Below are positions 23,661-64,000 of a stretch of DNA of 64,000 bases, piece after piece. How positions within the stretch are numbered: position 1 is the stretch's first letter; every line of letters begins with the position of its first letter. The position numbers and the translations under genes were made by a program. Source of the stretch: Candidatus Multivoradales bacterium (lineage in GTDB: Bacteria > Acidobacteriota > Thermoanaerobaculia > Multivoradales > Multivoraceae); assembly GCA_965223325.1 (NCBI GenBank), contig CBDCWI010000002.1, positions 4,416,001-4,480,000 of the forward strand, read 5' to 3'. The notes beneath the pieces are model-generated. The model saw nothing but the letters and a program-made list of their open reading frames with translations. It made no database searches and was not told where the DNA came from.

Positions 23661-23841
23661 CACCACACCCGGGAACAACGCGTCGCGTTGAGGAGGTGTT
23701 TGGAGCGGATCTGCTTACGCATGTTCAGTGTGGCCGCGGACTTTGCTCGGGAATCCGACTCGTGAACCTCGGCATGCGCGTGAACCGCGCATGGCTATGA
23801 AACATAGTTGCCTGGAACGTCTCCGGAGGCGAAGCCTCGGG
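23661..23841 (+). mobile_element. Family A internally deleted remnant: ~28 bp of transposase plus right end
   Basis: CACACCCGGGAACAACGCGTCGCGTT (tnpA-A) joined to GAGGAGGTGTTTGGAGCGG...TGGAACGTCTCCGGAGGCGAAGCCTCGGG. Confidence 0.85.
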
Positions 23842-24156
23842 AGGGTCGCACCGTGGGTCCGGGTGTCGTCGTGGATCTGAACTGACAACTGAGCGCGAGG
23901 GTGGGCGATCACGCCCTCTCTCGCGCTCTTCTTTCGGCTCTCGCGGAGTGGTAAAGGAGTCCTGCCCAGTCACTCTGCCGCGGCAATCGCGCCTACCGCG
24001 AGCCCAGACCTCAAGGATCGAGAAAGTGAGAATCCATGATCCTTCCCAATCTCGACGAGCTTCTGCACATTCGACAGTCCGCCCTTTGGGGCATCGAAGC
24101 GGGATGGGTTGCCGAGTTGTTGCGCGAGTCCGCTGCGCGCAAGCCTTTGTTGTGGT

Positions 24157-27000
24157 TTAGCCCTCGAGCGCCTTCCGGACTTGTGAGCTCCAATTGAAGA
24201 TGATGCGAAGGTTCGGAATGAAGTCGGCTTCGTGGCCGTCGGTCAGCAGAAACCGACCATCGGGATGTACGCGGTAGAGGGGCCAGTGCGCGAGAGTGTC
24301 GAAGGGAACATCGAAGAGCCTCTCTGGCTCGCTATGGTTGCCACTGTCGTCGAGGATGCGGGTGCGATGCATACCGCCCTCGGGTCCGACAAAGTAAAGC
24401 TCGTTGGTTCCGCCTCGCCACCTTGGCTGCCTTCCGCCTTCTCGGGAAACTCGAATGCGTTTGGATGGCTGGTCGACCCTGACCAGATAGATCTCATGGT
24501 CTCCTGACTCAGGAGATGAGAAAGCGAGCCACTCGCCCGATGGGTGCAGCGCGGGTCCTCGTTCGTCGAATCGAGACTCCACGAGGGCCAAGGCGTCTTC
24601 TCGGCCGACGAGAAAGTCTCGGCCGCCGATCCTCCCGGCAACGCTGAAGAGAAAATCTCCGTTCGGCAGCCAGCTCTCGAGATCGCGAAACTGGTCGCTC
24701 TGGTAGATGAGTTGAGGTGGGTTGTCCCCGTCCGGGTCGTACGAGACGATCTGTGGCGTTCCCCAACTGGTGACCGCGAGGCGCCTGCCATCGGCCCGCC
24801 AATGCGAGGTCATGCCCTCGCCCACGAAGGTGTCGACACCCCGAGAGAGGTCCCGCACCCAAACCTCAAAGTTGGTGTCGTCCTCCCTCGATGCTCCGGC
24901 TCGACTGAAAGCGAGTCTCTCTCCGTTTGGCGAGATTGAGAATCGCGATGCAGAGATGGGCAGGTTCTCTAGCCTGACTCCCTTCGAGGAGTACCAAGAC
25001 AGGGGAATCTCGGCCGAGTAGTCGGGCAGGTAGATCAGCGTGCCGTCGTTCGATATGTCGTAGAACGCGCCGCAGCAATCACTGACGAACACGTCGTCGA
25101 GAACCGACACTGGTGTGCCGGTGAATCGCGCCGTGTCGGCATCGAAAGGGCGCGCCCACAACACGCCGTCGAGCTCGTAGAGCAGAGTGCGTGGCCCCAA
25201 GAAGCTGACACTTTGGGCGTCTTCGAGCAGAGGGCGTTCCTCGCCGGTCGAGAGATCTTTGACCACTACCGTGGAGTCGCCCTCGAAGCCGAAGCCTCTT
25301 TGAAAGAGAAGAAGCTCAGTCCCCGGCAAGAGGAGCGGCCTTTGGTGGCCGCGATCCAGCCCGATCTCGGTGAGAGGTTCGATCTCCAGCGAGTCGAGAT
25401 GGAGACGCTCGATCGGGGTTTGCCAACCCGATATCAGCAATCGATCGTCGTGGTCCCAGCTGGCCCACATGTGGTGCCGATCTTCCAGAAGCGTGATCGG
25501 CGGGCTACCGTCGAAGGGAACTTTGATCCAGGTATCGGTCGGCACACTTGTGACAAATAGGAACTCCCCGTCGGGAGAAAAGACCGGCGCGCCGAATGTG
25601 CTCTCGGGAGTGCGCAGCGTGCGCCAGTCTCTCTCATCGAGTTGACGAACTCGCAGCTCTGCCAGCTGGTGGCCGATCCATCTCTGTGCAGCGACTCGGC
25701 GTCCGTCGGGTGAGATGGCAAAGTTGACGAATCGGCCGTCGAGGTAGCCTCCAAAGTCGGTCTCCAGCTCGGCTATGGTCACGAACTGTTCGTTTGTGGG
25801 TCGTACGAGGAGCCAAGTGGCCGCAGCCCCCAAGAGCGCCGCGAAGAGAATCCAGGCGGGGAAGGAGCGGATCGCCGGTCGCCTCCTGGTCGTGGCTAGT
25901 CGACGGCTTCGCGGCTCGATTCCTGAGTCGTCGGCTGCCTTCGCCAAGAGATCGAGATGTTTTCCGAGATCAGTGGCCGAGCGCCAACGTTGCTCCGGCT
26001 TCTTGCGCAAGCACGTTTGCACGAGTCGATCGAGCTCGTGGGGAGCCAGGACTGCACGCTCTTCGAAAGTCTTCGGGGTTTCAGTCAGGAGTGCCGAGAT
26101 GAGGCTCGCTTGCGACTCTCCCGTAAAGGCCTTCTCGCCAGTCACCATCTCATAGAGAAGCGCGCCGAAGGAGAAGATGTCGGACCGCTGGTCGGTCTCT
26201 TTGCCCTCGAGCTGCTCAGGTGACATGTACTGCAGTGTTCCGAGGATGACTCCTTCGGCGGTTAGGGAACGCCGGCGAGTCGGTGCCGCCGTGTCGCTGC
26301 TTGCGAAGAGCGAGGGTTCGAGTCCGGCGAGTCCGAAATCGAGCAGCTTGGCTCCGTCGGGTGTTAGAAAGATGTTGGCCGGTTTCAAGTCGCGATGGTA
26401 GATGCCGTGCTCATGGGCTCTGCCAAGCGCCCCCGCGATTTGACTGGCCAGCTCGAGCGTTTCGACCAGTGGCAGGGGTCCTCTACCGAGCCGTTGGTGC
26501 AGGGTCTCGCCCTCGAGCAGCTCCATCACCAGGTACTCGATGCCGTTGGCGACACCGACATCGAAGAGAGAGCAGATATGTGGATGTTGCAGCTGGGCGA
26601 CGACCTGGGCCTCGCGCTCGAAGCGTTCGCGAAGCGAGGAGCGGTCGCCTCCTCGGCTCCCAAGCACCTTCAGCGCAACGTCGCGACCGAGTCGGGTGTC
26701 GCGCGCACGATAGACCTCACCCATGCCCCCGGCGCCAATCGGCGCGATGACTTCATATGAGTCGAGTTTGAACCCGTTCGGCAGAGTGGCAATGTGGGCC
26801 GCGATCTCCGATCTGCTCGAGTCCGGTAGCCGCGCCAGAGCAGACTTCGAACGTTCGGCGAGCAGATCGGCCACGATCGCTCGGAGCTCGGCATCATCCG
26901 CGCAGGCTCGATCGATGTAGGCCTTTCGCTCGCGCCCATCGAGCTCAATCGCCCTAGCGAGAACGGCGTCTGCTTCCCGAAACCGGTCGAAGGGATTCAC
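24157..27000 (-). CDS. Ser/Thr protein kinase with TM segment and PD40/TolB-like propeller repeats
   Basis: GAGGMGEVY, VALK, HRDLKPAN, DFGLA, YMSPE; SPDG repeats. Confidence 0.95.
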   Translation of the reverse strand: MNPFDRFREADAVLARAIELDGRERKAYIDRACADDAELRAIVADLLAERSKSALARLPDSSRSEIAAHIATLPNGFKLDSYEVIAPIGAGGMGEVYRARDTRLGRDVALKVLGSRGGDRSSLRERFEREAQVVAQLQHPHICSLFDVGVANGIEYLVMELLEGETLHQRLGRGPLPLVETLELASQIAGALGRAHEHGIYHRDLKPANIFLTPDGAKLLDFGLAGLEPSLFASSDTAAPTRRRSLTAEGVILGTLQYMSPEQLEGKETDQRSDIFSFGALLYEMVTGEKAFTGESQASLISALLTETPKTFEERAVLAPHELDRLVQTCLRKKPEQRWRSATDLGKHLDLLAKAADDSGIEPRSRRLATTRRRPAIRSFPAWILFAALLGAAATWLLVRPTNEQFVTIAELETDFGGYLDGRFVNFAISPDGRRVAAQRWIGHQLAELRVRQLDERDWRTLRTPESTFGAPVFSPDGEFLFVTSVPTDTWIKVPFDGSPPITLLEDRHHMWASWDHDDRLLISGWQTPIERLHLDSLEIEPLTEIGLDRGHQRPLLLPGTELLLFQRGFGFEGDSTVVVKDLSTGEERPLLEDAQSVSFLGPRTLLYELDGVLWARPFDADTARFTGTPVSVLDDVFVSDCCGAFYDISNDGTLIYLPDYSAEIPLSWYSSKGVRLENLPISASRFSISPNGERLAFSRAGASREDDTNFEVWVRDLSRGVDTFVGEGMTSHWRADGRRLAVTSWGTPQIVSYDPDGDNPPQLIYQSDQFRDLESWLPNGDFLFSVAGRIGGRDFLVGREDALALVESRFDERGPALHPSGEWLAFSSPESGDHEIYLVRVDQPSKRIRVSREGGRQPRWRGGTNELYFVGPEGGMHRTRILDDSGNHSEPERLFDVPFDTLAHWPLYRVHPDGRFLLTDGHEADFIPNLRIIFNWSSQVRKALEG

Positions 27001-27082
27001 GACCGCAGTTTAGCGTGGCTTCCTCTCGAGAGATTTCGTGAAAGGAGTTGCAGTTGCTGCAGCTCAGATCGAGCTGCCGGAA

Positions 27083-27312
27083 GATCGCGCGGCGATGCCG
27101 CGCTCAGTCGGGAGTAGGTTTCGAGCCCAAGTGGTGGCGCAGAGCCAGGCCCAACGGGTAGCCGATTCACGACTGACAGTTGGTCAATGGCGAGGGTCGT
27201 CCGATAGGGTTAAGGCCCCTTGCAGGACAGTCGGTGGTTCCGTGCGAAGGTCATGGCCCATCAATTGCGGTATGTCCCCACTGACGCGAGTGGTTGGGGA
27301 GCCGTCGAAGTC
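27083..27312 (+). mobile_element. Family B left end plus first ~20 transposase codons (truncated, diverged)
   Basis: GATCGCGCGGCGATGCCGCGC...; ATGGCCCATCAATTGCGGTATGTCCCC = MAHQLRYVP. Confidence 0.85.
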
Positions 27313-27408
27313 ATCGATCGGATGCCGACGTCGGAGCTTCCATGGCGATCGACATGGGAGCGGTTCGCACTGCCGGAACTACCCGGTATACGGCTCTCTA
27401 CATGGCTC

Positions 27409-28434
27409 TCATTCAGCCTTCGGTCGCCGCGTGTGCTTCGTCGCTGCGTATTCCTTTACGGCATTGCGTGAGCTGCGCCATAGACCGTCTGCGCCTTGAA
27501 CCGCGTCGAGTCGACCGCGTTGCGCGGCTTGCCGGAGCGCTGGCACCGAGAAGTCGTCGTCGGCGAGCGCCGCCAACGGGACCAGCCGAGCGGGTCCGGC
27601 CACGTTCGGTACGACGAAGCGATTGAGGTTGTCGAGCATCGCCCTTGCGATGATCTCACCGAGTGCTCCGTGATCGCCGTCGTCGGCACGCTGAAGAGCC
27701 CGAATGTACGCGTCGCGCTCCTTCTTGTAGATGACGACTGGGGGATAGCCGAGACGCACCAGTGTCAGGTTCAGCGCGAGGCGACCGACTCGCCCGTTGC
27801 CGTCGATGAACGGGTGAATGCACTCGAACTGATGGTGGACTCGAGCCAATTCCTCGGGCAGCGGAGCGGCGAGTTTGGCGCCCGACACCACGGTGTCACC
27901 GAGTTCGACTGCCTCGGCGACCCAGTCGGTGAGCAGGGCAGGTACTTCTGGCCACGGTGGTGGGGTCATGCCGCCGCCGAATTCGGCGATCTCGTGTTGG
28001 CGGAAGTTCCCTGGTGACTCGGCATCAGTCGCTTCCGGATGAGGGGCGACACTCCACACTGGCGTCATGGCCATGTGATGGATCCTACGAACTTCGTTCA
28101 AGCTGATTAACCCGCCGTCACTCCAGCCGTCGGGGTCCAGGGCTTGGCCGTACACCCACCGAGCAGCCTCGCTGTAGCCCTCAACTTCCATGTACTCCTT
28201 GATTGGCTTCGCGCCGACCGCGCGGCGCTGGTCAAGAAGCTGCGCGACCTCTCGCAGCGCGAGCGTGTTGCCCTCCAGCGCTGTCGAATGGTGGGCTTCG
28301 AGGTGCCAGATGTCAGACCAGACCGTCTCCGACTCCTTCGGCGAGGGCAATCCGCCGAACCGTTGGTTCAACGCTCGGAGCGCGCCGTCGAGCCGCAGGT
28401 AGATCGTGGCCCTGCTGGGTCGTCCTCGTGCCAT
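27409..28434 (-). CDS. Fic-domain protein with C-terminal HTH-like extension
   Basis: Canonical HPFIDGNGRVGR motif; HSTALEGNT helix. Confidence 0.92.
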   Translation of the reverse strand: MARGRPSRATIYLRLDGALRALNQRFGGLPSPKESETVWSDIWHLEAHHSTALEGNTLALREVAQLLDQRRAVGAKPIKEYMEVEGYSEAARWVYGQALDPDGWSDGGLISLNEVRRIHHMAMTPVWSVAPHPEATDAESPGNFRQHEIAEFGGGMTPPPWPEVPALLTDWVAEAVELGDTVVSGAKLAAPLPEELARVHHQFECIHPFIDGNGRVGRLALNLTLVRLGYPPVVIYKKERDAYIRALQRADDGDHGALGEIIARAMLDNLNRFVVPNVAGPARLVPLAALADDDFSVPALRQAAQRGRLDAVQGADGLWRSSRNAVKEYAATKHTRRPKAE

Positions 28435-28490
28435 GTGCGCGTTTTCGTCCCTTCGGTTCGAGAGTTGAGTAGCTGGTGTCTCGGCGAAAT

Positions 28491-28552: not shown

Positions 28553-28593
28553 CTTGCGGGCACGTACGGGGACCGTGAAGGCGCATCGCGCCG

Positions 28594-28687
28594 CCGGGAT
28601 CCGACTCGTGAATCCCGGCCTGCGCGTGAACCTCGCATGGCTATGAAACATCGGTGCCTGGAACGTCTCCCGAGGCGAAGCTCCGGG
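28594..28687 (+). mobile_element. Family A solo right end
   Basis: CCGGGATCCGACTCGTGAATC...TGAAACATCGGTGCCTGGAACGTCTCCCGAGGCGAAGCTCCGGG. Confidence 0.85.
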
Positions 28688-28836: not shown

Positions 28837-29067
28837 ATGACCAACATCACCCTGAAGCTGGACGAACCCATCCTCCGAGAGGCGCGCATTCTGGCCGCGA
28901 AGCGAGGCACCTCCGTCAGTCGGCTCGTCGCAGAGCAGCTCGAAGAGCTCGTCCGTCGTGAGCGCCGCTACGGCTCAGCGAGGAAGCGCGCCCTGAAGAG
29001 AATGCGGTCTGCCAGATCGCTCGGCTGGACGCCTCCTGCCTCGCGAGATGAACTGCATGAGCGTTAG
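28837..29067 (+). CDS. Ribbon-helix-helix antitoxin (VapB-like)
   Basis: MTNITLKLD...GTSVSRLV...SRDELHER; overlaps PIN gene. Confidence 0.85.
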   Translation: MTNITLKLDEPILREARILAAKRGTSVSRLVAEQLEELVRRERRYGSARKRALKRMRSARSLGWTPPASRDELHER

Positions 29068-29476
29068 GGCGTTTGTCGACACGAACATCCTCGTGTACGC
29101 ACACGACTCTGGTGCTGGCGAACGACACTCGGCGGCGTTGACTCTGCTCGCCGGGCTGTGGGAAAGCCGAACTGGAATCCTGAGCACTCAGGTGCTCCAG
29201 GAGTTCTACGTCAACGTCCACAAGCGTGCCCGGCATCCCATGACTCGGGACGAGGTCAGGCACACTCTCGACGACTACATGGCATGGGAGATCGTTGTCA
29301 ATGACGAGCAGTCGATTCGCGAAGCCATCGTCCTGGAGGAGCGCTACAAGCTCTCGTTCTGGGATGCGTTGATTGTTCAGGCGGCAAACTCTTCTGGCGC
29401 CGATGTTCTCTACTCCGAGGACCTCAGCCACGGCCATGTCTACGGGGCTGTCGAACTCGTGAATCCCTTCGCGTAG
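29057..29476 (+). CDS. vapC: PIN-domain toxin
   Basis: FVDTNILVYA, QVLQEF, SFWDALI, YSEDL, NPF. Confidence 0.92.
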   Translation: MSVRAFVDTNILVYAHDSGAGERHSAALTLLAGLWESRTGILSTQVLQEFYVNVHKRARHPMTRDEVRHTLDDYMAWEIVVNDEQSIREAIVLEERYKLSFWDALIVQAANSSGADVLYSEDLSHGHVYGAVELVNPFA

Positions 29477-29588
29477 CGGTTCGTGCAGGAGGAGCTGGTC
29501 GCGGATCGGTGGAGCCCAGGCGGTCACAGGAAGGTTGGGCTCGTGATCTGACTGAGAACGTACGGCAACCTCATCCCGGCCGAGAGGC

Positions 29589-29693
29589 GACGTTCCAGGC
29601 ACCTATGTTTCACAGCCATTCGGGGTTCACGCGCCTGCCGAGATTCACGAGCGTCAGCGTCCATCAGGAAAGTGATGTCAACGCCGCGCGATC
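29589..29693 (+). mobile_element. Family A solo left end followed by a 12-bp family B right tip
   Basis: GACGTTCCAGGCACCTATGTTTCAC...CAGGAAAGTGA, then CGCCGCGCGATC at 29682-29693. Confidence 0.8.
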
Positions 29694-53445: not shown

Positions 53446-53463
53446 CCCCCGCCTGGCGGGGCC

Positions 53464-56297: not shown

Positions 56298-56342
56298 TGA
56301 CTACTTTGTCAGCTGCCTGGGAGGCCGACCGACTCATTTCAT

Positions 56343-56370
56343 CTGGAACGTCTCGAGGCGAAGCCTCGGG
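56343..56370 (+). mobile_element. Family A right tip only
   Basis: CTGGAACGTCTCGAGGCGAAGCCTCGGG. Confidence 0.8.
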
Positions 56371-56372
56371 GA

Positions 56373-56411
56373 GGTACACGCTATTCCCGCACACTCGGTA
56401 CACGCTATTCC
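56373..56411 (+). repeat. 15-bp direct repeat GGTACACGCTATTCC, two copies
   Basis: Copies at 56373 and 56397. Confidence 0.8.
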
Positions 56412-56492
56412 TGAATTCGCGTTTGACAGCCGATTTCGCCGCCGTATATGGTCGGCTAACCCAATGTCGAACAACCATAAGGGGGCGATCAG

Positions 56493-57098
56493 ATGATTGT
56501 CGAACAATCGGCGCTGTTTCGAATCGGCTTCGTTTTCATAGCATTGGCCGTGCTAACCACCGGGTTAGCTAGCGCACAAGGCGTTACCCAACAGGAAGTG
56601 CGCCTCACCCTCAAAGGAAGCAATCTTCCCGCCTACACGTGCGCACAGCACCTCCTCCAGACTCCGGACGTTCAGACACTGCGCGAGATTCTCGATCTCG
56701 ACCAGGCCGAAAGGGATCGCTTGTCTGCGCGGCAAGCAGACTACGAGTCTCATCGGAATGGGCTGGCTGCTCATATGAGGAACCGCTACGAGGCTTTGGG
56801 GCTGAGCGACCCTGCGAGGGCCGCGACTATCCCTGAACAAGCCCTTCGTTCCTACAGCCTTGAGGGATCCAGGCGGGATGCCGCTGCCGTTCGACGACTC
56901 GTAGCATCGCTTTATCGAGGTCTCGATGACGAGTCAAGAGCTCTAATGAAGGCAGAGTTCCCGGGCGGAAGAATCTGCGAGGGCGTTGCTTTGCACACGA
57001 CCGACGAGTCGTTTGATCCCGACCTGTTGGACCTCTTTGATACTTTCAGAGACGGAATGCAAGAGGACTTTGACACCACTGACAGAGGAAACCGATGA
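56493..57098 (+). CDS. Secreted hypothetical protein
   Basis: Signal peptide ending ASA-Q; overlaps next gene by 4 bp. Confidence 0.65.
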   Translation: MIVEQSALFRIGFVFIALAVLTTGLASAQGVTQQEVRLTLKGSNLPAYTCAQHLLQTPDVQTLREILDLDQAERDRLSARQADYESHRNGLAAHMRNRYEALGLSDPARAATIPEQALRSYSLEGSRRDAAAVRRLVASLYRGLDDESRALMKAEFPGGRICEGVALHTTDESFDPDLLDLFDTFRDGMQEDFDTTDRGNR

Positions 57099-57583
57099 TG
57101 TTGACGAGAGGATGCCTCCTTGTAGCAATGCTGCTGGCAATTGCCGGCACCCCCAGCCAGGCGCTGACCTATTCAACACACGTAGCGACGACGGCCATCG
57201 GCAACAACTTCAGCATGACCGTCGACTTTACGGCGTGGGTGAATGTGACTCAGATTACGGAATTGGATTGGCTCGACGTTATCCAGGCCACGGCGATAGG
57301 ATACGGCTATTACAACGCTTGTATTCTCAATGTGAACAACCTCGGCCAGGACGATAAGACGTGGATAATCCTCCCCTACCAGCCGACTCCTTTCAAGGTA
57401 GAAGCCCTGTTGAGAAAGAACGGTACCTGTGGTGGCGGAGTTGGCGGTCTGTCCTTCAAGACCAAGGGTGTTTTTAGTGGAACCGAGATCCCTGCGTCCT
57501 CCAAAAACGGAAACTGCGTTTGCCCTTGTGAAGCGCCACCCGGCGGCGGTGGTGGTGGTGGAGGAGGATGGCCGCCACAGTAG
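57095..57583 (+). CDS. Secreted Cys-containing hypothetical protein with Gly/Pro tail
   Basis: Signal peptide ending SQA; CVCPC motif and poly-Gly. Confidence 0.65.
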   Translation: MMLTRGCLLVAMLLAIAGTPSQALTYSTHVATTAIGNNFSMTVDFTAWVNVTQITELDWLDVIQATAIGYGYYNACILNVNNLGQDDKTWIILPYQPTPFKVEALLRKNGTCGGGVGGLSFKTKGVFSGTEIPASSKNGNCVCPCEAPPGGGGGGGGGWPPQ

Positions 57584-57643
57584 TTAGCTCACAGCCGGCG
57601 GTTCTGGGTCGTCCCAAAGGGGAAAGCCTACCGTGCCGTCGCT

Positions 57644-59037
57644 GATCGCGCGGCGATGCCGCGCCCAGTCGGGGGTAAGTTTTGAGTCGAAGTCGTGGCG
57701 CAGGACCGGGACTCGCCACCGGCCCAACGTGTAGCCCGATTCACAAGATGACAGTTGGTCGATGGCGAGGGTCATCCGCTAGGATTCGGCTCCCTGCAAG
57801 GCATCGATGGTTCCGTGCGATGAGTCATGGCCCATCAACTGAGGTATGTCCCCACCGACGGAAGCGGTTGGGGAGTCGTCGAAGTGACGGTGCGCATCGT
57901 CAACGGATTCTTCCTGTTGGCGCCATCGTCACGCCTGCGCGACCTGCTGATCGGGATCATCGGCCGCGCGCAGCGAAAGACCGAAATCCGGATCCACGCC
58001 CTGGACTACCAGGTCAATCATGCCCACCTTCTGCTGGGCGCTCGCGACGCCCAGCAGCTGGCCGATTTCATGCGGCGCATTCAGCACCAGACGAGTGTGG
58101 AACTACGGATCCTGCGCGGGTGGAAGGGTCCGAAATGGGAAGGGCCCTACAAGACGTCGTTCCCCGGTCACGCGAAGAAGGACCTCTGCCGGCGCTTTCG
58201 CTACATCCTTGCCCAGGGCTGCAAGGTGGGATTGGTGTCTTCACCGCGCAAGTGGCCAGGCGTGTCGGTGGGGGAGGCGCTGTGGTCAGGGACCTTCGAG
58301 CTCGAGGGCACCTGGGTCGATCGTTCGGCGCTTCGTCGTGCCCGTTTCTCGAAAGCCGGTCGTCGTTTGAGCGAAAAGGACTTCTCGAGCCGCGAGACGG
58401 TCGTTTTATCGAAGCTTCCGTGCTTCGAGGACCTCCCTGACGAGGAGTACTTCGACTGGGCCCGCGGGATGATTGTAGAGATCGAGGACGAGACCCGGGT
58501 GCGCCACAAACGGGAGGGAACGAGGCCTCGCGGCGCGTACAAAACGACGCAAGTGAGTCCAATGCGTCGCCCGCGGAAGCTCGATTGGGGGCCGAGGCCT
58601 CGGGTCATCGCGTCGGACTCGTTCGAGCGCAATCGGCTGCTTTCGGTTTTCGATGCGGTGAGGCGAGCGCATCGCGCGGCGCGGGATCTTCTCTGGAGTG
58701 GTGACCTGGAGGCGCGGTTTCCCCCCGGGACTTTTCCAAGCCCGCTGCCCTTTGTGGCCTTGGAAGTGCCTGGGCCGGGTGCACGCGACGGTCCCTGACG
58801 GCCCAGCCCACCGGCGAAGAGGTTGAGGGGGATGCACCGATCGGTGTGTTGGCGGAGCTCCGTTTGTCGGGCGGAGTACCGACGTTCAGGAGTGGCGAAG
58901 GCGAGGTTTCTGCCTTCGTCACCGCCCCTCGAGGTCGGAGAAGAGGGCGATGGAGCGCGCGAAGGCTCGGCGCTTCGTCCAGTCCAGCGTTGCCGTCAAA
59001 ACTTACCCCCGACCGTGCGCGGCATCGCCGCGCGATC
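57644..59037 (+). mobile_element. Family B element, complete
   Basis: GATC-to-GATC with inverted ends. Confidence 0.92.
57827..58798 (+). CDS. tnpA: Family B Y1 HUH transposase, 323 aa
   Basis: NHAHLLL; YILAQ. Confidence 0.88.
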   Translation: MAHQLRYVPTDGSGWGVVEVTVRIVNGFFLLAPSSRLRDLLIGIIGRAQRKTEIRIHALDYQVNHAHLLLGARDAQQLADFMRRIQHQTSVELRILRGWKGPKWEGPYKTSFPGHAKKDLCRRFRYILAQGCKVGLVSSPRKWPGVSVGEALWSGTFELEGTWVDRSALRRARFSKAGRRLSEKDFSSRETVVLSKLPCFEDLPDEEYFDWARGMIVEIEDETRVRHKREGTRPRGAYKTTQVSPMRRPRKLDWGPRPRVIASDSFERNRLLSVFDAVRRAHRAARDLLWSGDLEARFPPGTFPSPLPFVALEVPGPGARDGP

Positions 59038-59142
59038 TGCCATCAAAACTCACCCCCTACCGTGCGCGGCCTCTCGGCGCGCCGCCCAGTACGGCGATGC
59101 CGTCAACCTTACCCCGACCGTGCGCAGCATCGCCGCGCGATC
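59038..59142 (+). repeat. Two extra tandem family B right tips
   Basis: TGCCATCAAAACTCACCCCCTACCGTGCGCGG... and TGCCGTCAACCTTACCCCGACCGTGCGCAGCATCGCCGCGCGATC. Confidence 0.85.
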
Positions 59143-59158: not shown

Positions 59159-61975
59159 TCACCGTGTGGTTCTTGACATCTGCAAGACTTCGGCAACTTC
59201 ATCCCGGCCTTCCAGGCCATTGCCTGCGGGGCAGTCGATCCGGAGGAGCAGATTCTGTTGTCTTCTCAGTCGGGTCTCGGCCCAGGCTAAAACCTCCTCC
59301 TCCTGAGAGAAGAGAATGACCTGGCGTTGGGTGCTCTCCGCTAACAACAGGTCGAGGATGGCCTGAGTCCGGTCAGCATCGGAGTGTACGGTGACGTCGT
59401 CCAAGAAGACCGGCGCTATCTCTTCCGTCGTGACGAGAGTCTCGGCCAGAGCGAGGCGCAACAGTAGGTAGATCTGTTCTGCAGTTCCGTGGGAGAGGTG
59501 TGGTGCCGTCCGCCACTGGCCGTCTGCGTCTTGGGCTTGAATCTCGAGGCTCGCCGGATCGATTCGCGCGTCGACGTAGCGCTCGCTCGTAGCTTTGCCA
59601 ATGTGGCGAGAGATGATGGCCGAGAGCCTGGGCGCGATGTCCCGTTGGATCTCGTCCTTCGCCTCGGCCAGGAAGGTAGCTGTTCTCTCGAGGATCGCAT
59701 CCAGTTCTTCGAGTCGCTCGAGATCGGCACGAGCGGCAGCGTGCTGTTCTTCAGCTTCTGCGACGTCTGGCTTGGCGCTCTCGAACTCCTGGATCTTCCC
59801 CTTCAGCTGTTCCGCTTCGTTCTGGGCTTCCCGGAGCCGCACATCCGAGCGGTCGGCGGCTTCTTGGAGCCTCCCGACGGGTCCCGGTGGGACGGACGGC
59901 CAGGGGAGGGGACCAAGCTCGCGCTCGTAGTCGGCGAGACGCTCTTCGAGCTCCAGAAGGCTCGAGGGCCCGAGAAGGCCGCAAAGTCGCTCGAAGGCTT
60001 CACGGCTTCGGTCGAGCTCCTGGTCCTGCTTGTCGAGCTGGAGGAGCCTGGCTTCGAGCTTCCCCGCCAAGGAATCACCTGGTTCTCCATCGATTCCTAG
60101 TCGTCTTGCCGCTTGCACGAGCTTCTGCTCCAGCCGCATCGCACGTCCCTGTTGTTGCGCGTACGCTTCCTCCTGGCGTCGGCGAAGCTCGAGGTTTTCT
60201 GCGAGGTCGCTCCGGCGGGCGGCAAGGACAGCCAGCTCCCGGTTCGTTCGACATTGCCCGGCGTAGTCCACCGCCAGCTGTCGGAGGTCGAGATCTTCGA
60301 TCCTCGGATCGTCGAGGCCGCGCTGCAGTAGTTCTTTGCGAAGTCCGTGGGCGGCGTCTTCGAAGGCTCGGGAGTACTGCTGCTCCATGAGCTTCCATTT
60401 GTCGTACTGCTCCTGCTGGAGGTGGGTATCGTCGACGGCGGACGCGAGGCGCCGAAGATCCTGTGGGGCCGTGGGGAGCCCGTTCGCTGCCAGGCGTCTC
60501 CTGGCGTCTTCCTGAGCACTCTCTACTTCTGTTCGACGATCTCGTTGCACCTCGAGTCGAGTTGCCAGGGAGCTCGTCCGTTGCTGGCCCGATTGCCCCG
60601 CTAGCAGCAACCATGCGGTAGCTGCACCAGTGAGGAGGCCGGCGATAGCCGATGCTCCGGCTCCAGGGTTTGTTCCAGAGGAAAACAGGACAATCGCTAG
60701 GACAACCAGCGTAGTCGTGAAGCTCGCCATGGCCCACGAGGCTTTGCGCCGCTGAACGCCAGCCTCACGAAGGTCCTCAAGCTGGCGTTCGAGCTCGGAG
60801 TCGACATCAGGCAGTAGCCTCTCGAGACTCTCGGCGTAGACACGCAACTCCGGCCCCGTGGGGAGTCCCGATTCATGGGCCTCGACGGGGGGCCGAAAAG
60901 ACTGGTTGCGGTGTACCTCGAGCTCTCGCTTGCAGGAGTCGTAGGTGGCTAGTGCCGTCTCGACCTCGGGTGCTACCTCGGTGTCTCCCTGGGGTGGGAA
61001 CGGTAGTGAAGCGAGCTCCTGTTCGATGTCTGCGGCAGATGGCCCCGAGTCTGGGGGCACCGGCATCGACCGTCCTCGCCAGGTGGCCAGAACGTCGCTG
61101 ATAGAGCGCCGCTGATCCGAAGTCGAGTCGCCCGTTGGTGGTGCACCATCGGGGAATTGCGACTGGAGGACCCGGATTTCCTGGACCTTCTCCGACAGCG
61201 AAGCGGCCTTCGCAACCAGGACGACTCGTCTGGCCTCGTCGTACGCTCTCTGAAGTCGGACGACGTCCTCTTCGCTCTCGCTCAGATCGTCGAGTAGTTG
61301 CAGAAAGCGCTCGTGTTCGACTCGCGCCATCTCAAGATGGGACTCCGTGCTCCGAAGTTGCTCGACCGCGGCTGGCAGAGGCTTGGAAGACCCGCGCCGC
61401 CTCATGCCGACGTTTTCGGAGCGAAACTCCTTGACGCATCGAAGAGCCGCTTCGGCCGTAGCGTCGGAATTGCCCGCGATCGCCGCCTTCTGCAACTGCT
61501 CTTGAAAGTCTTCCGGATGAGACAAGACCTCGAGGAGTTCCGCCTGTCTGACGCAGACGGTGCCACCGAAGATTTGGCGATTCAAACCGAGGACTCCTGA
61601 GGCGTCGGCTGAACCCTCGAAGATGTACCGACTCGTGAGATCGCGTCCGGTTGCCGCGTCCGTGATCTTGCTTCCCGCCGGATCGGCGAGGTCCTGGAGG
61701 ACCTCCAGGACGTTGCCGTCGTCCAACTCGACAAGGACCAGGACCTTCCAGTCCGCACGGCCCCATGGCTGGTGACGCTGCACCAGGGCTTCATCCGCCC
61801 TTGCTCGTCGTCCACGGGCTCTCTTCATGCCGCAGAGACCAAGTTGGATCGCAGCATGCCAGCTCGACTTCCCTGCTTCGTTTCCACCCCAGATCAGAGT
61901 GAACCCGGGTGCGAGCTCCAGCTCCTGATCCGAGAAAGGGCCGAACGATATAGCGCGTACGGAGAGCACCCTCAT
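59159..61975 (-). CDS. SbcC/Rad50-like (YhaN-type) SMC ATPase with central TM hairpin
   Basis: Walker A GGNEAGKSS, long coiled coil, LSHGTAEQIYLLLRLAL signature, PVFLDD Walker B. Confidence 0.88.
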   Translation of the reverse strand: MRVLSVRAISFGPFSDQELELAPGFTLIWGGNEAGKSSWHAAIQLGLCGMKRARGRRARADEALVQRHQPWGRADWKVLVLVELDDGNVLEVLQDLADPAGSKITDAATGRDLTSRYIFEGSADASGVLGLNRQIFGGTVCVRQAELLEVLSHPEDFQEQLQKAAIAGNSDATAEAALRCVKEFRSENVGMRRRGSSKPLPAAVEQLRSTESHLEMARVEHERFLQLLDDLSESEEDVVRLQRAYDEARRVVLVAKAASLSEKVQEIRVLQSQFPDGAPPTGDSTSDQRRSISDVLATWRGRSMPVPPDSGPSAADIEQELASLPFPPQGDTEVAPEVETALATYDSCKRELEVHRNQSFRPPVEAHESGLPTGPELRVYAESLERLLPDVDSELERQLEDLREAGVQRRKASWAMASFTTTLVVLAIVLFSSGTNPGAGASAIAGLLTGAATAWLLLAGQSGQQRTSSLATRLEVQRDRRTEVESAQEDARRRLAANGLPTAPQDLRRLASAVDDTHLQQEQYDKWKLMEQQYSRAFEDAAHGLRKELLQRGLDDPRIEDLDLRQLAVDYAGQCRTNRELAVLAARRSDLAENLELRRRQEEAYAQQQGRAMRLEQKLVQAARRLGIDGEPGDSLAGKLEARLLQLDKQDQELDRSREAFERLCGLLGPSSLLELEERLADYERELGPLPWPSVPPGPVGRLQEAADRSDVRLREAQNEAEQLKGKIQEFESAKPDVAEAEEQHAAARADLERLEELDAILERTATFLAEAKDEIQRDIAPRLSAIISRHIGKATSERYVDARIDPASLEIQAQDADGQWRTAPHLSHGTAEQIYLLLRLALAETLVTTEEIAPVFLDDVTVHSDADRTQAILDLLLAESTQRQVILFSQEEEVLAWAETRLRRQQNLLLRIDCPAGNGLEGRDEVAEVLQMSRTTR

Positions 61976-63069
61976 GGCGGGGCCTCCAGATCAGAGCGCC
62001 CATCGAGAGCACGTAGGCCGGTGATCAGGATCCGCGCCTTCATGTCCTCCGATAGTTCCTGGTCGGCCCGGACCTTGGAGACGAAGCGGCCTCGAACTGT
62101 GGGTTCCTTCTCGAGGCCATCCAGGTCGTAGCCCGGTTGGAGGCCCTGCGACCGGAGTACGATCTGTTCCACGTCGCCGGTCGGGCTGGATAGGCGCTCG
62201 AGGTTGAGATCTATATGGGCAGACAGTTCACCTTTGAGAGTGACCCGGACGACGCCTTTCAGGTGCCTCAGTTCGCCCGAGATCAGCTCGCGTAGCTCGT
62301 CGCAGTGATTGCACGACGTGAGGTCGATGAAGACATCATGCACCTCCGAGACGGCTACAGAGAATCGCTCCCGCGAGATGACCCCGTCGGAGCCGATCTG
62401 GGCGACTACCATCCCACGGTTCCCTGTCTCCCCGAAGGCGAGGGGGTCTGGGTTGCCTGGGTAGGTGAAAAGGTCCTGGTCGGCCGGAGCGTGGTAGTGG
62501 CCTACGAATGCATGCTGAAAGCCGGCCCTTTCGATGTCGGGGCTTTCGAACGGCGCGTGGGGCGCTTGGGAGGCCGTCGCCGGAACGGAGCTGGAGTCTG
62601 CTCCGTGGAAGAGGGCGACGTGGGTGGAGCCGGGCGGGGTTCTGAAGCCACCGAAGAAGGAATCGCAGCGTGTGGGTCCGGTGAACGCTGCGCCCCAGAG
62701 ACAGAGACCGCCTGCGAGTTCTGTCGACTGAAACTCACCCGTCTTGAAAAGGTGTACGTTCGAAGACCATGAGACCTGATGGTAGAGGCTATTCGGCCCG
62801 TACCAGTCGTGGTTTCCGGGACTGATGTAGATCGGGAGCGGGGTGTCTCCGAAGGAAGTGCGAAGGAACTCTCGAGTATCGGGTGACACGCGGTCGTGCT
62901 CATAGAGATCTCCCGCACACAGGATAGCGTCGACTCGCTGCTCCTGGGCGAGATTCAGGATCCTTCTCAAGCAGGCACGGAGAGCGCCGCGACGACGTTT
63001 CGCCACATCGCGTTTTGCCCAGGCAAAGGGGGAATCGAGATGGAGATCAGCGAAGATGGCGAGTCGCAT
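61972..63069 (-). CDS. SbcD/Mre11-like (YhaO-type) metallophosphoesterase nuclease
   Basis: ADLHLD, AGDLYE, PGNHD, FHG, GHYH, YPGNP. Confidence 0.9.
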   Translation of the reverse strand: MRLAIFADLHLDSPFAWAKRDVAKRRRGALRACLRRILNLAQEQRVDAILCAGDLYEHDRVSPDTREFLRTSFGDTPLPIYISPGNHDWYGPNSLYHQVSWSSNVHLFKTGEFQSTELAGGLCLWGAAFTGPTRCDSFFGGFRTPPGSTHVALFHGADSSSVPATASQAPHAPFESPDIERAGFQHAFVGHYHAPADQDLFTYPGNPDPLAFGETGNRGMVVAQIGSDGVISRERFSVAVSEVHDVFIDLTSCNHCDELRELISGELRHLKGVVRVTLKGELSAHIDLNLERLSSPTGDVEQIVLRSQGLQPGYDLDGLEKEPTVRGRFVSKVRADQELSEDMKARILITGLRALDGRSDLEAPP

Positions 63070-63420
63070 GGGTGTGCTCCACGTCCCTTTGTGATGGGAT
63101 CTGTTCGGAACGAGGGAAAGAGTTTCGCGTAGGAGACATAGTTACCCCCCAAGTGCTGGGTGGTTGATGAGAATGCCGATACGCTGCGCGGCGTGGCACA
63201 GCCGAAACATAGGAACGATCGAGAATCTCGAAGCGAGCCCGAAGCAGTGCTCGAGTTCTCCAGGGCGAGGCAGACGCTCGGGAAAGCGGAGCGGAGCAAC
63301 GGCCATGAGGGCGTTCCTTTGGGAGGAACCGCGCCTTCCTGGTCTGAAGTTGACCAGGGTCATTTGCCCGTAGGAGCTGGGCGTGCTGGAGAGTCTAGGG
63401 AGAGAAAGGCGGGCGGCTGG

Positions 63421-63490
63421 AATAACTAGAAACATTAGAAACATTAGTAATTCTGGAATTACTCGAAACAGATAAAATCTATATGAAAAG
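63421..63490. promoter_or_regulatory. AT-rich patch with TAGAAACAT direct repeat and AGTAATTC-TG-GAATTACT palindrome
   Basis: Read directly; lies upstream of the nuclease/ATPase operon. Confidence 0.4.
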
Positions 63491-63564
63491 AGGGTTGCCG
63501 TCAATCGTTGCGAGATTCGAGGTTCGCGGCGATGGTGGCTGTAGAGGCTGGTCATTGAAGTGGG

Positions 63565-63620
63565 CCGCATGGCTATGAAACATAGGTGCCTGGATCCTCT
63601 CCCGAGGCGAAGCCTCGGGA
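63565..63620 (+). mobile_element. Family A solo end in right-end orientation
   Basis: CGCATGGCTATGAAACATAGGTGCCTGGA...CCCGAGGCGAAGCCTCGGG. Confidence 0.85.
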
Positions 63621-63796
63621 AGCACGAGAGCCTCGACGTGACCTGGCCGAACTGAGGGAGTGCCGCGGTTGCCAGCGAAGCGAAGTACTACGCCAGCGGG
63701 CCCCTTCAGAGTCTCGAGCTCGGAAGCGGCCTCGACGAACTCCGCAACTACGATGAGCGCTACTACCCGGCCAGGATTCGAGTGGGGACCGATCCT
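63621..63796 (+). pseudogene. Internal RHS/YD-repeat fragment between two A hairpins
   Basis: VASEAKYYASGPLQSLELGSGLDELRNYDERYYPARIRVG resembles RHS core repeats (Y..xGPL.SL.LG.G..E.R.YD.RY). Confidence 0.65.
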
Positions 63797-64000
63797 CGCC
63801 GAGGCTTCGCCTCGCCTCGGCGACGTTCCAGGCACCTATGTTTCACTGCCATGCGAGGGTTCACGCCCCCGCCAAGGCTTCGCCTCGGCGATGTTCCAGG
63901 CACCTATGATTCACAGCCATGCGAGGTTCACGCGCCTGCCGAGATTCACGAGTGTCAGCGGCCATCAGAAAGTGAGCCACCCCGCCTTCAGCGGCGTTAG
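63797..64000 (+). mobile_element. Two tandem family A left ends; the second runs to the window edge
   Basis: CGCCGAGGCTTCGCCTC...GTTCCAGGCACCTATG at 63797 and again at 63870. Confidence 0.85.

What the first reader, a model, noticed from the sequence alone, without database searches (positions are those of the whole stretch)
23661..64000. Candidate HUH-transposase-built gene capture and shuffling array (integron-like, no integrase)
Seen: over ~40 kb, cargo blocks are separated by ends or copies of two Y1-transposase element families (3 full A, 3 full B, 2 B halves, about 15 solo ends). I saw none in the first 23.6 kb. Cargo is accessory and conflict-type: kinase, Fic, VapBC, adhesin-like protein, toxin plus immunity, GmrSD-like, SbcCD-like, secreted unknowns. 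Known: Y1 HUH enzymes (IS200/IS605 TnpA, RAYT/TnpA-REP) cut and rejoin ssDNA at hairpin-defined sites. Inference: the ends act as recombination sites that recruit and rearrange DNA at one locus, like attC sites in an integron.
Basis: partly seen in the sequence, partly recalled or inferred. Interest (0 to 1): 0.9.

Follow-up and report, generated by a model that had tools for sequence, protein, structure and literature searches.

The report
Hairpin-ended transposon array in defence island
Two families of small jumping genes with hairpin-tipped inverted ends have piled up in a strain-variable island of defence and toxin genes, and several rearrangements break exactly at their tips, but nothing shows a dedicated integron-like gene-capture machine.

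Summary
From 23.7 kb to the window's end lie 3 full A elements (~1.40 kb), 3 full B elements (~1.51 kb) plus the start of a fourth, two 3' halves of A, and 12 solo ends. None lies in the first 23.6 kb.

Genome-wide, 20 of 22 B ends and 30 of 42 A ends fall in about 1.75% of the genome.

Both families encode 323-347 aa Y1 HUH transposases: an IS200/ISDra2-like core with a Y-x3-Q motif, plus an unmatched C-terminal domain. Unlike IS200/IS605, both have terminal inverted repeats (42 and ~66 bp) with hairpins at the tips, and no target duplications. The closest known kind is the little-studied TIRtron/TIRYT.

The island (~95 kb) carries defence and conflict cargo and other IS types, and no integrase. 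A second, collinear version of the island at the other contig's end shares the elements but little cargo. Some indels end exactly at element tips; others fit homologous recombination.

Best reading (about 0.6): IS-like Y1 elements colonising and rearranging a strain-variable defence island. Integron-like capture is unproven (about 0.15).

The parts
23679..23845 (+). Solo B right end: 80 bp of interior, the TIR at 23759-23825, and the outer hairpin. It marks the left edge of the island.
24157..27000 (-). Cargo: Ser/Thr kinase with PD40 repeats (947 aa).
27079..27311 (+). A left-end fragment: the TIR at 27083-27124 plus about 190 bp of interior.
27409..28434 (-). Cargo: Fic-domain protein.
28592..28687 (+). 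Solo B right end.
28837..29476 (+). Cargo: DUF6364 small protein plus a PIN-domain protein (a VapBC-like pair).
29586..29675 (-). Solo B left end.
29884..32193 (+). Cargo: CarboxypepD_reg-repeat protein (769 aa).
32396..32451 (+). Solo A right end. Together with the A left-end fragment at 27083 it bounds a 5.4 kb stretch with A ends and no transposase.
32549..33074 (+). Fragment of an ordinary IS3-type element (HTH_Tnp_1). It is 98.5% identical to 6 other copies in the genome.
33406..33597 (-). B left-end fragment: the TIR at 33418-33483 plus about 114 bp of interior.
33967..39016 (.). Cargo block: a 610-aa unknown (-), a GmrSD_N protein of 679 aa (-), and a 345-aa unknown (+).
39154..40661 (+). 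B1: full-length B element with a frameshifted transposase gene.
40685..44883 (.). Cargo block: a 142-aa unknown, an HTH+SAM methyltransferase, a 356-aa protein with an internal repeat, and a 156-aa unknown.
44884..46283 (+). A1: full A element with an intact Y1 transposase gene.
46493..47885 (+). A2: full A element with a degenerate left TIR and an intact gene.
48847..50348 (+). B2: full B element with an intact 332-aa Y1 transposase gene at 49097-50095.
50365..50482 (+). A right-end fragment (75 bp of interior plus the TIR) that directly abuts B2's right tip.
50634..53147 (+). Cargo: 837-aa protein with no family match.
53215..53256 (-). Solo A left TIR.
53463..54973 (+). B3: full B element with an intact gene at 53712-54710.
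54986..55545 (+). A 3' half (560 bp), 5'-truncated at B3's right tip.
55546..56297 (+). A 3' half (752 bp), starting directly at the right tip of the previous half.
56298..57643 (+). Cargo: two small ORFs (201 and 162 aa) with no family match. This is the only cargo of the window that is also in the second array (C1:2134437-2135783).
57644..59037 (+). A3: full A element with an intact gene.
59038..59142 (+). Two further 5'-truncated A right ends in tandem (59043-59081 and 59108-59142).
59159..63570 (-). Cargo: SbcC-like ATPase (938 aa), a Metallophos (SbcD-like) protein (365 aa), and a 142-aa unknown.
63540..63879 (.). A partial B right end (63540-63603, +) and a solo B left end (63819-63879, -).
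63887..64000 (+). Left end of B4, a full element that continues to C2:4481375 beyond the window.

Best explanation
A and B are two families of autonomous, IS-like transposons. Each carries one gene for a long Y1 HUH transposase, bounded by terminal inverted repeats whose outermost part is a short hairpin. The kind is TIRtron/TIRYT-like.

Shown:
- The elements sit in a strain-variable accessory and defence island of about 95 kb (C2:4439679-4534597) on what is most likely a single circular chromosome.
- The mosaic of full copies, 5'-truncated copies and solo ends was produced by deletions or joinings anchored exactly at an element tip, and by homologous recombination and segmental duplication between the 1.4-1.5 kb repeats.

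Inferred:
- The elements move as single-stranded DNA by cut-and-rejoin at the hairpin tips, which fits the absence of target duplications.
- The mosaic also reflects repeated insertion, often into or beside earlier copies.
- The cargo genes are ordinary island content that is gained and lost around the elements. They are not cassettes recruited by a dedicated system.
For: Enzyme:
- Pfam Y1_Tnp matches in 5 of 7 ORFs tested; the two misses are the two halves of the frameshifted B1 gene.
- A profile of the family matches ISDra2 TnpA (E 1e-6) and TnpA-REP (E 1.5e-3), with Y123 aligned to the catalytic Tyr.
- The AlphaFold model (pLDDT 89.6) matches ISDra2, TnpA-REP and IS608 over the first ~160 residues only.
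- H62, H64 and Y123 are invariant in 33 of 33 aligned homologues.

Ends:
- A has a 42-bp TIR and B a ~66-bp TIR.
- A's tip folds as a 7-bp hairpin as ssDNA in one of the two ends folded: z -3.6 for A2's right end, no excess for A1's left end.
- I saw no target duplication in any of the 9 A copies printed with both flanks.

IS-like behaviour:
- About 14 further loci of related ~1.37-kb families are dispersed in the genome. One pair is 99.8% identical over 1373 bp.
- The family is multi-copy in 29 of 41 genomes of the order.
- The family is large: 1445 cluster representatives at E<=1e-30.

Permissive island:
- An IS3 fragment and ISL3 and IS256/Mutator transposases lie in the same island, together with GmrSD-like, type IIG RM-like and UvrD genes. 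The second array carries a DISARM-like gene set.

Homologous recombination and duplication:
- B5 with its flank is 98.9% identical to B1 with its flank over 2046 bp, while B5 plus an A half is 95% identical to B3 plus an A half over 2080 bp.
- A 9-kb indel between the two versions lies between two direct A right parts.

Tip-anchored events:
- An 8.4-kb indel has one edge at A2's exact right tip and the other 30 nt inside another A TIR. The joined form is seen in read contigs of 2 of 4 runs.
- Three separate junctions join a B right tip to A interior sequence.
Against: - The copies are old: 87-98% identical, apart from one 100% identical pair at a contig end. Active IS copies are usually at least 99% alike.
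- Yet 9 of 10 A genes are intact, with a median dN/dS of 0.076. That is unusual for decaying insertions and could mean the genes are kept for a function.
- No recent A or B transposition is shown within this assembly.
- All 15 copies in the two arrays point the same way relative to replication, which random insertion would not give. However, they are not independent events.
- Neither a target motif nor an empty site could be found (relatives are too distant).
- Clustering this strong needs either local hopping or a self-targeting preference, and neither is shown.
Confidence: 0.6

Rival explanations
1. Capture and shuffling by the ends. The hairpin-tipped ends act as recombination sites for the Y1 enzymes. 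DNA lying between two compatible ends, or between an element and a downstream surrogate end, is moved or joined at this locus. The array then works as a cassette platform without an integrase.
For: - Tip-precise junctions exist that homologous recombination cannot make: the A right tip joined 30 nt inside another A TIR, tandem 5'-truncated right ends after A3, and three junctions of a B tip to A interior.
- Some stretches are bounded by matching ends and hold no transposase: 27083-32451 (Fic, PIN pair, adhesin-like protein) and 53215-55545.
- The two collinear versions of the island share the elements but little cargo.
- Many transposase copies are under purifying selection.
- Elsewhere in the genome, 4 orphan RHS toxin modules each begin with the same leader ending in an A-like TIR, all in one orientation.
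- An array of related Y1 genes with tandem end-like repeats occurs in another genus.
Against: - No cargo block was found in two different contexts bounded by ends. The only shared block is explained by descent or duplication together with its neighbouring A copies.
- Cargo lies on both strands in blocks of 1-4 genes, and ends occur in all orientations.
- Other IS types have accumulated in the same place.
- The RHS leaders share one identical fusion point, so they may descend from a single event.
- No circle junctions or excision joints of cargo units appear in the read contigs, although these were contigs rather than raw reads.
Confidence: 0.15
2. Domesticated or host-beneficial Y1 genes. The many diverged but intact copies are kept by selection on the host, for example to diversify or regulate the defence island. 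They are not selfish transposons.
For: - dN/dS is 0.05-0.14 across 9 intact A copies, with dS 0.08-0.37.
- The TIRs are more conserved (91-94%) than third codon positions (86%) or the 3' UTR (80%).
- A large conserved C-terminal domain of unknown fold is present.
- RAYT-type relatives are regarded as domesticated (abstract of PMC5581495).
Against: - Three of 7 B copies are frameshifted or split, and 1 of 10 A copies is broken.
- Related families are dispersed like IS, with one near-identical pair.
- The A TIR is absent from the other species representatives scanned, from JGI metagenomes, and from 5 relatives. There is therefore no long vertical persistence of this family.
- Purifying selection between copies is also expected if the copies diverged in different strains while still active.
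Confidence: 0.1
3. Assembly artefact. The dense repeats made the assembler join unrelated cargo blocks, so the array as drawn does not exist.
For: - The genome is in 2 contigs. One ends inside an A element and the other in an 11.5-kb stretch that is 99.88% identical to the first.
- Two versions of the island are present.
- No read contig spans a whole element, so the order of blocks was not checked independently.
Against: - In two runs of one sample, every cargo block of 44-64 kb is one contig. Most of these contigs (four of five in run X1) reach at least 29 nt into the element tips that the assembly places on both of their sides; the last block reaches only its right-hand neighbour.
- The blocks have similar depth: 45.6-56.4 in X2 and 3.2-6.8 in X1.
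- Copies differ by 2-13%, enough for long reads to tell them apart.
- GC skew fits one circle made of C2 followed by reversed C1.
Confidence: 0.04

Closest known systems
TIRtrons / TIRYT (TIR-associated tyrosine transposases; Di Nocera et al. 2013, PMC3733652, passages read; discussed in Quentin et al. 2018, PMC6006769, sections 11 and 15 read)
   Same: - A single Y1 HUH gene is flanked by terminal inverted repeats rather than by REPs or IS200-type subterminal hairpins.
- The TIRs can be self-complementary and occur as singles, dimers or clusters.
- A distinct protein group is reported from Acidobacteria.
- The inner motif of the A TIR (GTCGGGGGTAAG) resembles the published GGGGWSAS motif.
   Different: - The elements here are multi-copy as whole units (10 A, 7 B), strongly clustered, and mixed with 5'-truncated copies.
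- The Tyr motif is Y-x3-Q, not the Y-x3-NP of subclass 2.1, to which most TIRYTs were assigned.
- Membership in the published protein groups could not be tested, because their alignment is in a supplement.
IS200/IS605 family (IS608, ISDra2)
   Same: - The catalytic core has the Y1 HUH fold, and ISDra2 TnpA is the best sequence and fold match.
- The Tyr motif is Y-x3-Q.
- There are no target duplications.
- The ends carry hairpins.
   Different: - The protein is 2-2.5 times longer, with a conserved extra C-terminal domain.
- The ends are true inverted repeats of 42-66 bp.
- There is no tnpB.
- Copies are 87-98% identical rather than nearly identical.
- No target tetranucleotide is evident.
RAYT / REPtron (TnpA-REP with REP/REPIN)
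   Same: - A Y1 gene is flanked by inverted hairpin-bearing repeats, and tandem clusters of ends resemble BIMEs.
- 4ER8 is a good fold match (TM 0.69 on the target).
   Different: - The gene is not single-copy.
- The ends number 22-42 and are clustered, not hundreds and dispersed.
- The NCBIfam REP_Tyr_transpos score is 32-37 bits against a cut-off of 80.
- The Y-x3-NP motif is absent.
Integrons and CALINs
   Same: - An array of accessory genes is separated by repeats able to fold as ssDNA hairpins.
- Gene content turns over between close strains.
   Different: - There is no IntI.
- There is no single-ORF, co-oriented cassette structure.
- The repeats are ends of autonomous transposons.
- Cargo blocks hold 1-4 genes on both strands.
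IS91/ISCR and Helitron end-bypass capture (recalled, not read here)
   Same: - The enzymes are of the HUH class.
- Series of right ends in one orientation, and units with matching ends and foreign content, would fit capture by skipping an end.
   Different: - Those elements use Rep-like Y2 enzymes and rolling-circle copying.
- Here the enzyme is a Y1 IS200-like core, and no transduced flank was demonstrated.
Defence islands rich in mobile elements (general knowledge, recalled)
   Same: Defence, toxin-antitoxin and conflict genes are mixed with several kinds of IS, and the content varies between strains.
   Different: Two related Y1 families dominate, and their tips mark many of the breakpoints.

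Membership tests
IS200/IS605 | Y1 HUH transposase core (HUH motif and one catalytic Tyr, Y-x3-Q) | tested here: met
   Pfam Y1_Tnp matches. H62, H64 and Y123 are invariant. Y123 aligns to the ISDra2 Tyr. Foldseek matches ISDra2, IS608 and IS200 structures.
IS200/IS605 | Small transposase of about 130-150 aa made of the core only | tested here: not met
   The proteins are 323-347 aa. The C-terminal ~170 aa are conserved and confidently folded, with no PDB match.
IS200/IS605 | Subterminal hairpins at both ends and no terminal inverted repeats | tested here: not met
   A has a 42-bp TIR and B a ~66-bp TIR.
IS200/IS605 | No target-site duplication | tested here: met
   I saw no direct repeat in the flanks of any of the 9 A copies printed with both flanks, nor of the 7 B copies (by eye).
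IS200/IS605 | Insertion 3' of a fixed tetra- or pentanucleotide | tested here: inconclusive
   No shared flank motif is seen among the flanks printed. No empty sites are available.
RAYT / REPtron | Y-x3-NP motif and a match to the curated REP_Tyr_transpos model | tested here: not met
   The motif is RY[VI]LAQG. NF047646 scores 32.4 and 36.7 bits against a cut-off of 80.
RAYT / REPtron | About one gene copy per genome, with flanking REPs dispersed in high copy number | tested here: not met
   There are 10 A and 7 B full copies, and 42 A and 22 B ends, of which 30 and 20 lie in 1.75% of the genome.
TIRtron / TIRYT | Y1 transposase gene flanked by terminal inverted repeats | tested here: met
TIRtron / TIRYT | TIR carrying the GGGGWSAS motif (reported for the majority of TIRYTs) | tested here: inconclusive
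   The A TIR has GGGGTAAG (7 of 8 positions). The dispersed families have GTCGGGGGGACTTTCC. The B TIR has no such motif.
TIRtron / TIRYT | Protein belongs to one of the published TIRYT groups (for example the Acidobacteria group) | not testable with these tools
   The published alignment is in a supplement, and supplements are closed. The named homologues found here come from Acidobacteriota and Thermoanaerobaculia MAGs.
Integron | IntI tyrosine recombinase beside the array | tested here: not met
   PF00589 has 9 matches in the genome. None lies in C2:4.44-4.535 Mb or in C1:2.10-2.144 Mb.
Integron | Mostly single-ORF, co-oriented cassettes, each ending in one attC | tested here: not met
   There are 14 cargo blocks of 0-4 genes on both strands, bounded by left- or right-type ends in all combinations.
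Integron | Recombination sites that act as folded single strands | not testable with these tools
   A's tip folds as a 7-bp hairpin in silico in one of the two A ends folded. The B ends were not better than shuffled sequence. Activity needs a bench test.
IS91 / ISCR (rolling-circle capture) | Rep-like HUH enzyme with two catalytic tyrosines | tested here: not met
   The fold and sequence are those of a Y1 IS200-like core, with a single conserved Tyr in the motif.

The most novel reading that the evidence does not exclude
The hairpin-tipped ends are working recombination sites for a large, uncharacterised family of long Y1 transposases. By skipping an end or joining a tip to a nearby end, the enzymes move and stack blocks of defence and toxin genes. 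The block 27083-32451, the tandem right ends, and the RHS orphan toxin modules that each start with an A-like TIR would be products of this. If so, these bacteria have an integrase-free, ssDNA-based cassette platform that diversifies defence islands between strains.
Probability: 0.15. Interest if true: 0.85.

Novelty: new variant of a known kind. Interest (0 to 1): 0.5.

Why it matters
Y1 HUH enzymes flanked by inverted repeats (TIRtrons) have been named but hardly studied. The full-text search for 'TIRYT' found only 3 papers, 2 of them listed.

This locus offers:
- clear element boundaries for two such families;
- a large protein family (at least 1445 cluster representatives) with a new C-terminal domain;
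- two natural versions of one island, in which some breakpoints lie exactly at element tips.

That makes it a good test bed for two questions. How do TIR-bearing Y1 elements move, given that their ends must be handled on opposite strands? And do they do more than insert, that is, do they reshape defence islands and toxin arrays?

If they are only ordinary IS in a permissive island, the finding is a useful annotation and a caution against reading repeat-rich islands as capture machines.

Tried and rejected
Searches and checks that led nowhere:
- **Close relative for synteny.** The same-genus genome G001 is only about 74% identical at the DNA level, and homologues of window genes 4-23.6 kb are scattered in it and in G003 and G007. 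No empty-site or cargo-order comparison was possible.
- **Other genomes carrying the elements.** A protein-based scan of species representatives found nothing. The exact A-TIR pattern gave 0 hits in genome contigs and 0 in JGI metagenome contigs. The B-TIR pattern gave 0 in metagenome contigs. The A-TIR with up to 3 mismatches gave 0 of 5 relatives. The own genome is left out of the collection scans.
- **tRNA or RNA features.** ARAGORN found 0 genes and Rfam gave 0 matches at gathering score.
- **ssDNA folding.** A's right tip folds well (z -3.6). A1's left end and both B ends were not better than shuffled sequence, so no claim is made for a B hairpin.
- **Conservation of solo ends.** They match the consensus at 34-41 of 42 positions, which cannot be told from neutral decay.
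- **Orientation bias as a mark of lagging-strand targeting.** Dispersed paralogues split 9 versus 7. All 15 array copies are co-oriented, but they are not independent.
- **C-terminal domain.** It has no PDB fold match, and Atlas feature hits were all below 0.9.
- **Depth of read contigs.** The ratio of the shared cargo block (56.3-57.7 kb) to window-specific cargo is about 2.9 in X2, about 3.9 in X1, about 1.8 in X3 and above 8 in X4. I read this only as a hint that the two island versions sit in different strains, because contig depths are coarse and summed over organisms.
- **Parts without read cover in runs X3 and X4** are not used as evidence.
- **A left-end flank in runs X3 and X4.** Loose end at 44888. 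It did not match, by eye, any flank printed. I did not search for it.
- **Literature.** I found no paper describing Y1 or HUH end arrays as capture platforms. Supplements of PMC3733652 and PMC6006769, which hold the TIRYT alignment and subclass lists, could bear on membership and were not seen.

Considered and rejected:
- **REP-like dispersed repeats.** The ends are clustered and few.
- **DDE-type IS.** The enzyme is Y1 and there is no target duplication.
- **Simple tandem duplication of one unit.** The cargo blocks are unrelated to each other.

Full report
**1. What is there**

The window is G000:C2:4416001-4480000, from a 6.69-Mb, 64% GC genome in two contigs. Repeat finding and alignments show two element families beyond 23.6 kb.
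- Element A is about 1.40 kb. Full copies lie at 44884-46283, 46493-47885 and 57644-59037, and two 3' halves lie at 54986-55545 and 55546-56297.
- Element B is about 1.51 kb. Full copies lie at 39154-40661, 48847-50348 and 53463-54973, and a fourth begins at 63887.
- Profile scans of the ends over the whole genome give 14 A ends and 13 B ends in the window. None lies before 23,759, and 12 are solo ends.
- Genome-wide, 20 of 22 B ends and 30 of 42 A ends lie in two stretches that make up about 1.75% of the genome: C2:4439679-4534597 and C1:2122221-2144090. The only correction is that the two halves belong to the family I call A.

**2. The elements**

Each element has one ORF with a Pfam Y1_Tnp match. 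Five of 7 ORFs tested matched; the two misses are the two halves of the frameshifted B1 gene.
- The proteins are 323-347 aa.
- A profile of 33 homologues matches ISDra2 TnpA (E 1e-6) and E. coli TnpA-REP (E 1.5e-3). The conserved Tyr of the motif RY[VI]LAQGCKEGL aligns to the catalytic Tyr.
- An AlphaFold model (mean pLDDT 89.6) matches ISDra2, TnpA-REP (TM 0.69 on the target), IS200 and IS608 structures over the first ~160 residues only. The C-terminal ~170 residues are confidently folded but match nothing in the PDB.
- The Tyr motif is Y-x3-Q, as in IS200-type enzymes, not the Y-x3-NP of RAYTs. The curated RAYT model scores far below its cut-off.
- Both elements end in terminal inverted repeats, unlike IS200/IS605.
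  - A: 42 bp, TCAAAACTTACCCCCGACCGTGCGCGGCATCGCCGCGCGATC, with the palindrome GCGCGGC-NNN-GCCGCGC four bases from the tip.
  - B: about 66 bp, followed by a short variable palindrome.
- I saw no target duplication in the flanks of 9 A and 7 B copies.

**3. What is known about this kind**

- Di Nocera et al. 2013 (PMC3733652, passages read) named RAYT-like genes flanked by inverted repeats TIRtrons and TIRYTs. They noted that the TIRs may be self-complementary and occur singly, in dimers or in clusters, and they described a sharply defined protein group from Acidobacteria.
- Quentin et al. 2018 (PMC6006769, sections 11 and 15 read) classified TnpA-Y1 proteins. None of their subclasses combines about 310-350 aa with Y-x3-Q.
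- The homologues named by their sources are 'transposase' or 'RayT' from Acidobacteriota and Thermoanaerobaculia MAGs.
- The full-length family has 1445 cluster representatives at E<=1e-30.
- It is multi-copy in 29 of 41 genomes of the order.
- The closest known kind is therefore the TIRtron. This family looks like an undescribed or barely described branch of it.

**4. Do they behave like IS?**

For IS-like behaviour:
- The genome holds 37 loci related to the A or B protein. About 14 belong to at least four other families of ~1.37-kb units with short TIRs. These are dispersed, and one pair is 99.8% identical over 1373 bp. That is ordinary IS behaviour.

Against it, A and B differ from typical IS:
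- Their copies are 87-98% identical, apart from one 100% identical pair at a contig end.
- Yet 9 of 10 A genes are intact, with a median dN/dS of 0.076.
- The TIRs are more conserved than third codon positions or the 3' UTR.
- Either the copies diverged while active in different strains and were brought together by island recombination, or they are kept for a function.
- The A TIR was not found in any other species representative, in JGI metagenomes, or in 5 relatives.

**5. The island**

- Cargo in the window: kinase+PD40, Fic, a PIN pair, a CarboxypepD_reg protein, a GmrSD_N protein with PADLOC hits, a methyltransferase, SbcC- and SbcD-like proteins, and several unknowns.
- Beyond the window, the island runs to C2:4534597. 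It holds two more B copies, one more A copy, ISL3 and IS256/Mutator transposases, a 1743-aa type IIG RM-like protein, a UvrD helicase and triplicated unknown units.
- An IS3 fragment lies at 32549-33074.
- No PF00589 integrase lies in the island, and no tRNA gene was found in the window.
- Several kinds of mobile element have therefore accumulated here, which fits a permissive accessory region.

**6. Two versions of the island**

Self-comparison gave an unexpected result.
- C2's last 11.5 kb is 99.88% identical to C1:2088678-2100169 in reverse.
- From there, C1:2100176-2144090 is collinear with C2 running back to about 4462300, through seven anchors in strictly the same order. One 144-bp, 81% match falls out of order.
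- Only 27,627 of the 55,413 bases compared have a counterpart. Of these, 11,498 are the flank and most of the rest are A and B copies.
- C1's version carries a DISARM-like gene set and other genes that are absent from C2's version.
- The other ends of the contigs overlap in the same head-to-tail way, at 91-99% identity.
- GC skew gives two balanced replichores if the chromosome is C2 followed by reversed C1.
- I therefore think there is one circular chromosome, with two variable regions each assembled twice from co-occurring strains. A true inverted duplication is not excluded.
- The read contigs lean the same way. The one cargo block shared by both versions is 1.8 to more than 8 times as deep as window-specific cargo, depending on the run. 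This is weak evidence, because contig depths are coarse.

**7. Breakpoints**

Some differences between the versions fit homologous recombination.
- A 9-kb indel lies between A3 and a downstream A half in direct orientation.
- B5 is a mosaic: 98.9% identical to B1 with its left flank, and 95% identical to B3 with an A half.

Others do not fit homologous recombination.
- In C1, the exact right tip of an A copy is followed by the last 30 nt of another A TIR and then the shared cargo. In the window, the same two points are 8.4 kb apart: 47885 and 56267. The joined form occurs in contigs of 2 of 4 runs.
- A right tip also abuts a 752-bp A fragment at 55545/55546, and A3 is followed by two short right-end fragments in tandem (59038-59142).
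- Three different junctions join B's right tip to A interior sequence.
- These tip-precise joints are what transposase-mediated insertion, adjacent deletion or end-joining would leave. In that narrow sense the ends do act as recombination breakpoints.

**8. Why I do not accept the integron analogy as shown**

- The 14 cargo blocks hold 0-4 genes on both strands and are bounded by left- and right-type ends in all combinations.
- No block was found in a second context.
- Other IS share the island.
- No cargo-bearing circle or excision joint appeared, although the runs are kept only as contigs.

Leads in favour of the analogy remain.
- Stretches with matching ends and no transposase exist: 27083-32451, with Fic, the PIN pair and the adhesin-like gene, and 53215-55545.
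- Series of right ends lie in one orientation.
- An array of related Y1 genes with tandem end-like repeats occurs in another genus (G012).
- An RHS locus at C2:2017591-2025655 has four orphan toxin modules. Each begins with the same ~155-nt leader ending in an A-like TIR, all in one orientation. Because all four share one identical fusion point with the RHS core end, they may stem from a single event.

**9. Assembly**

- In two runs of one sample, each cargo block of 44-64 kb is a single contig.
- Most of these contigs reach at least 29 nt into the element tips that the assembly places on both of their sides. The block at 56.3-57.7 kb reaches only its right-hand neighbour. Depths are similar across blocks.
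- The local junctions are therefore supported. The order of the blocks is not independently checked.

**10. Verdict**

- The thing is an array of TIR-bearing Y1 transposons of a large, poorly known family, in a strain-variable defence island.
- The mechanism I commit to is IS-like ssDNA transposition plus tip-anchored rearrangement and homologous recombination (about 0.6).
- Integron-like capture is a lead worth testing (about 0.15), not a finding.
Supplements of the two key papers were not seen.

Noticed in passing
G000 contig ends: C2:4534597-4546094 versus C1:2088678-2100169; C2:1-50264 versus C1:60543-9589: The two contigs overlap head-to-tail at both ends if C1 is reversed. One overlap is 99.88% identical over 11.5 kb and then patchy. 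The other is 91-99% identical over about 50 kb. With the GC skew (ori near C2:3.5 Mb, ter near C2:0.34 Mb), this fits one circular chromosome whose two variable regions were each assembled twice, probably from co-occurring strains.
   Followed up: partly
G000 C1:1-9635 and C1:46710-56344; integrase genes at C1:8481, C1:55190 and C2:4595: A 9.6-kb stretch is repeated at 100% identity 46.7 kb apart at the start of C1, and a tyrosine-recombinase gene lies in each copy and in the matching part of C2. It may be a prophage or integrative element, or an assembly redundancy.
   Followed up: no
G000 C2:2017591-2025655 (L013:5591-13655); a similar leader at C1:1782147-1782302: Downstream of an RHS-repeat gene lie four orphan modules. 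Each starts with the RHS core-end sequence, preceded by a shared ~155-nt leader that ends in an A-like TIR (36 of 42 matches to the A TIR in the first module). All four are in the same orientation and share the same fusion point.
   Followed up: partly
L007 (G012:C21:92001-112000), about 7900-18000: In another genus of the family, three Y1_Tnp genes lie 4.1-4.5 kb apart, with unknown ORFs between them and 1-3 tandem copies of a ~35-nt end-like repeat after each gene. Some of the intervening DNA is also repeated, so this may be a tandem duplication.
   Followed up: partly
window 42683-43456: The 356-aa cargo ORF (42527-43597) contains an internal direct repeat with a period of about 474 bp and 78% identity.
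   Followed up: no
window 46284-46492 and 48600-48793: The 209-bp spacer between A1 and A2 is 90.6% identical to C2:1573817-1574019. A 194-bp piece just left of B2 is about 86% identical to two places near C1:1.40 Mb. These are probably remnants of paralogous genes destroyed by insertions.
   Followed up: no
window 54971 joined to 46279 (read contigs of runs X3 and X4 only): Contigs from the second sample join B's right tip to a point 5 nt inside A1's right end followed by the A1-A2 spacer. This arrangement is in neither assembled version and suggests a third version of the array.
   Followed up: no
G000 C2:4515777-4529278: A unit of about 2.8-3.9 kb (a 620-625-aa unknown plus a small ORF) occurs three times in tandem at 85-93% identity. 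Two of the copies are followed by an A-like TIR (4523111 and 4528215). One copy has a 94% identical counterpart in the C1 version.
   Followed up: no
G000 C1:2135813-2137197 and C1:2142755-2144090: Two A copies 7 kb apart are 100% identical over 1336 bp, and the second is cut by the contig's end. This is either a very recent copy or an assembly effect at the contig's end.
   Followed up: no
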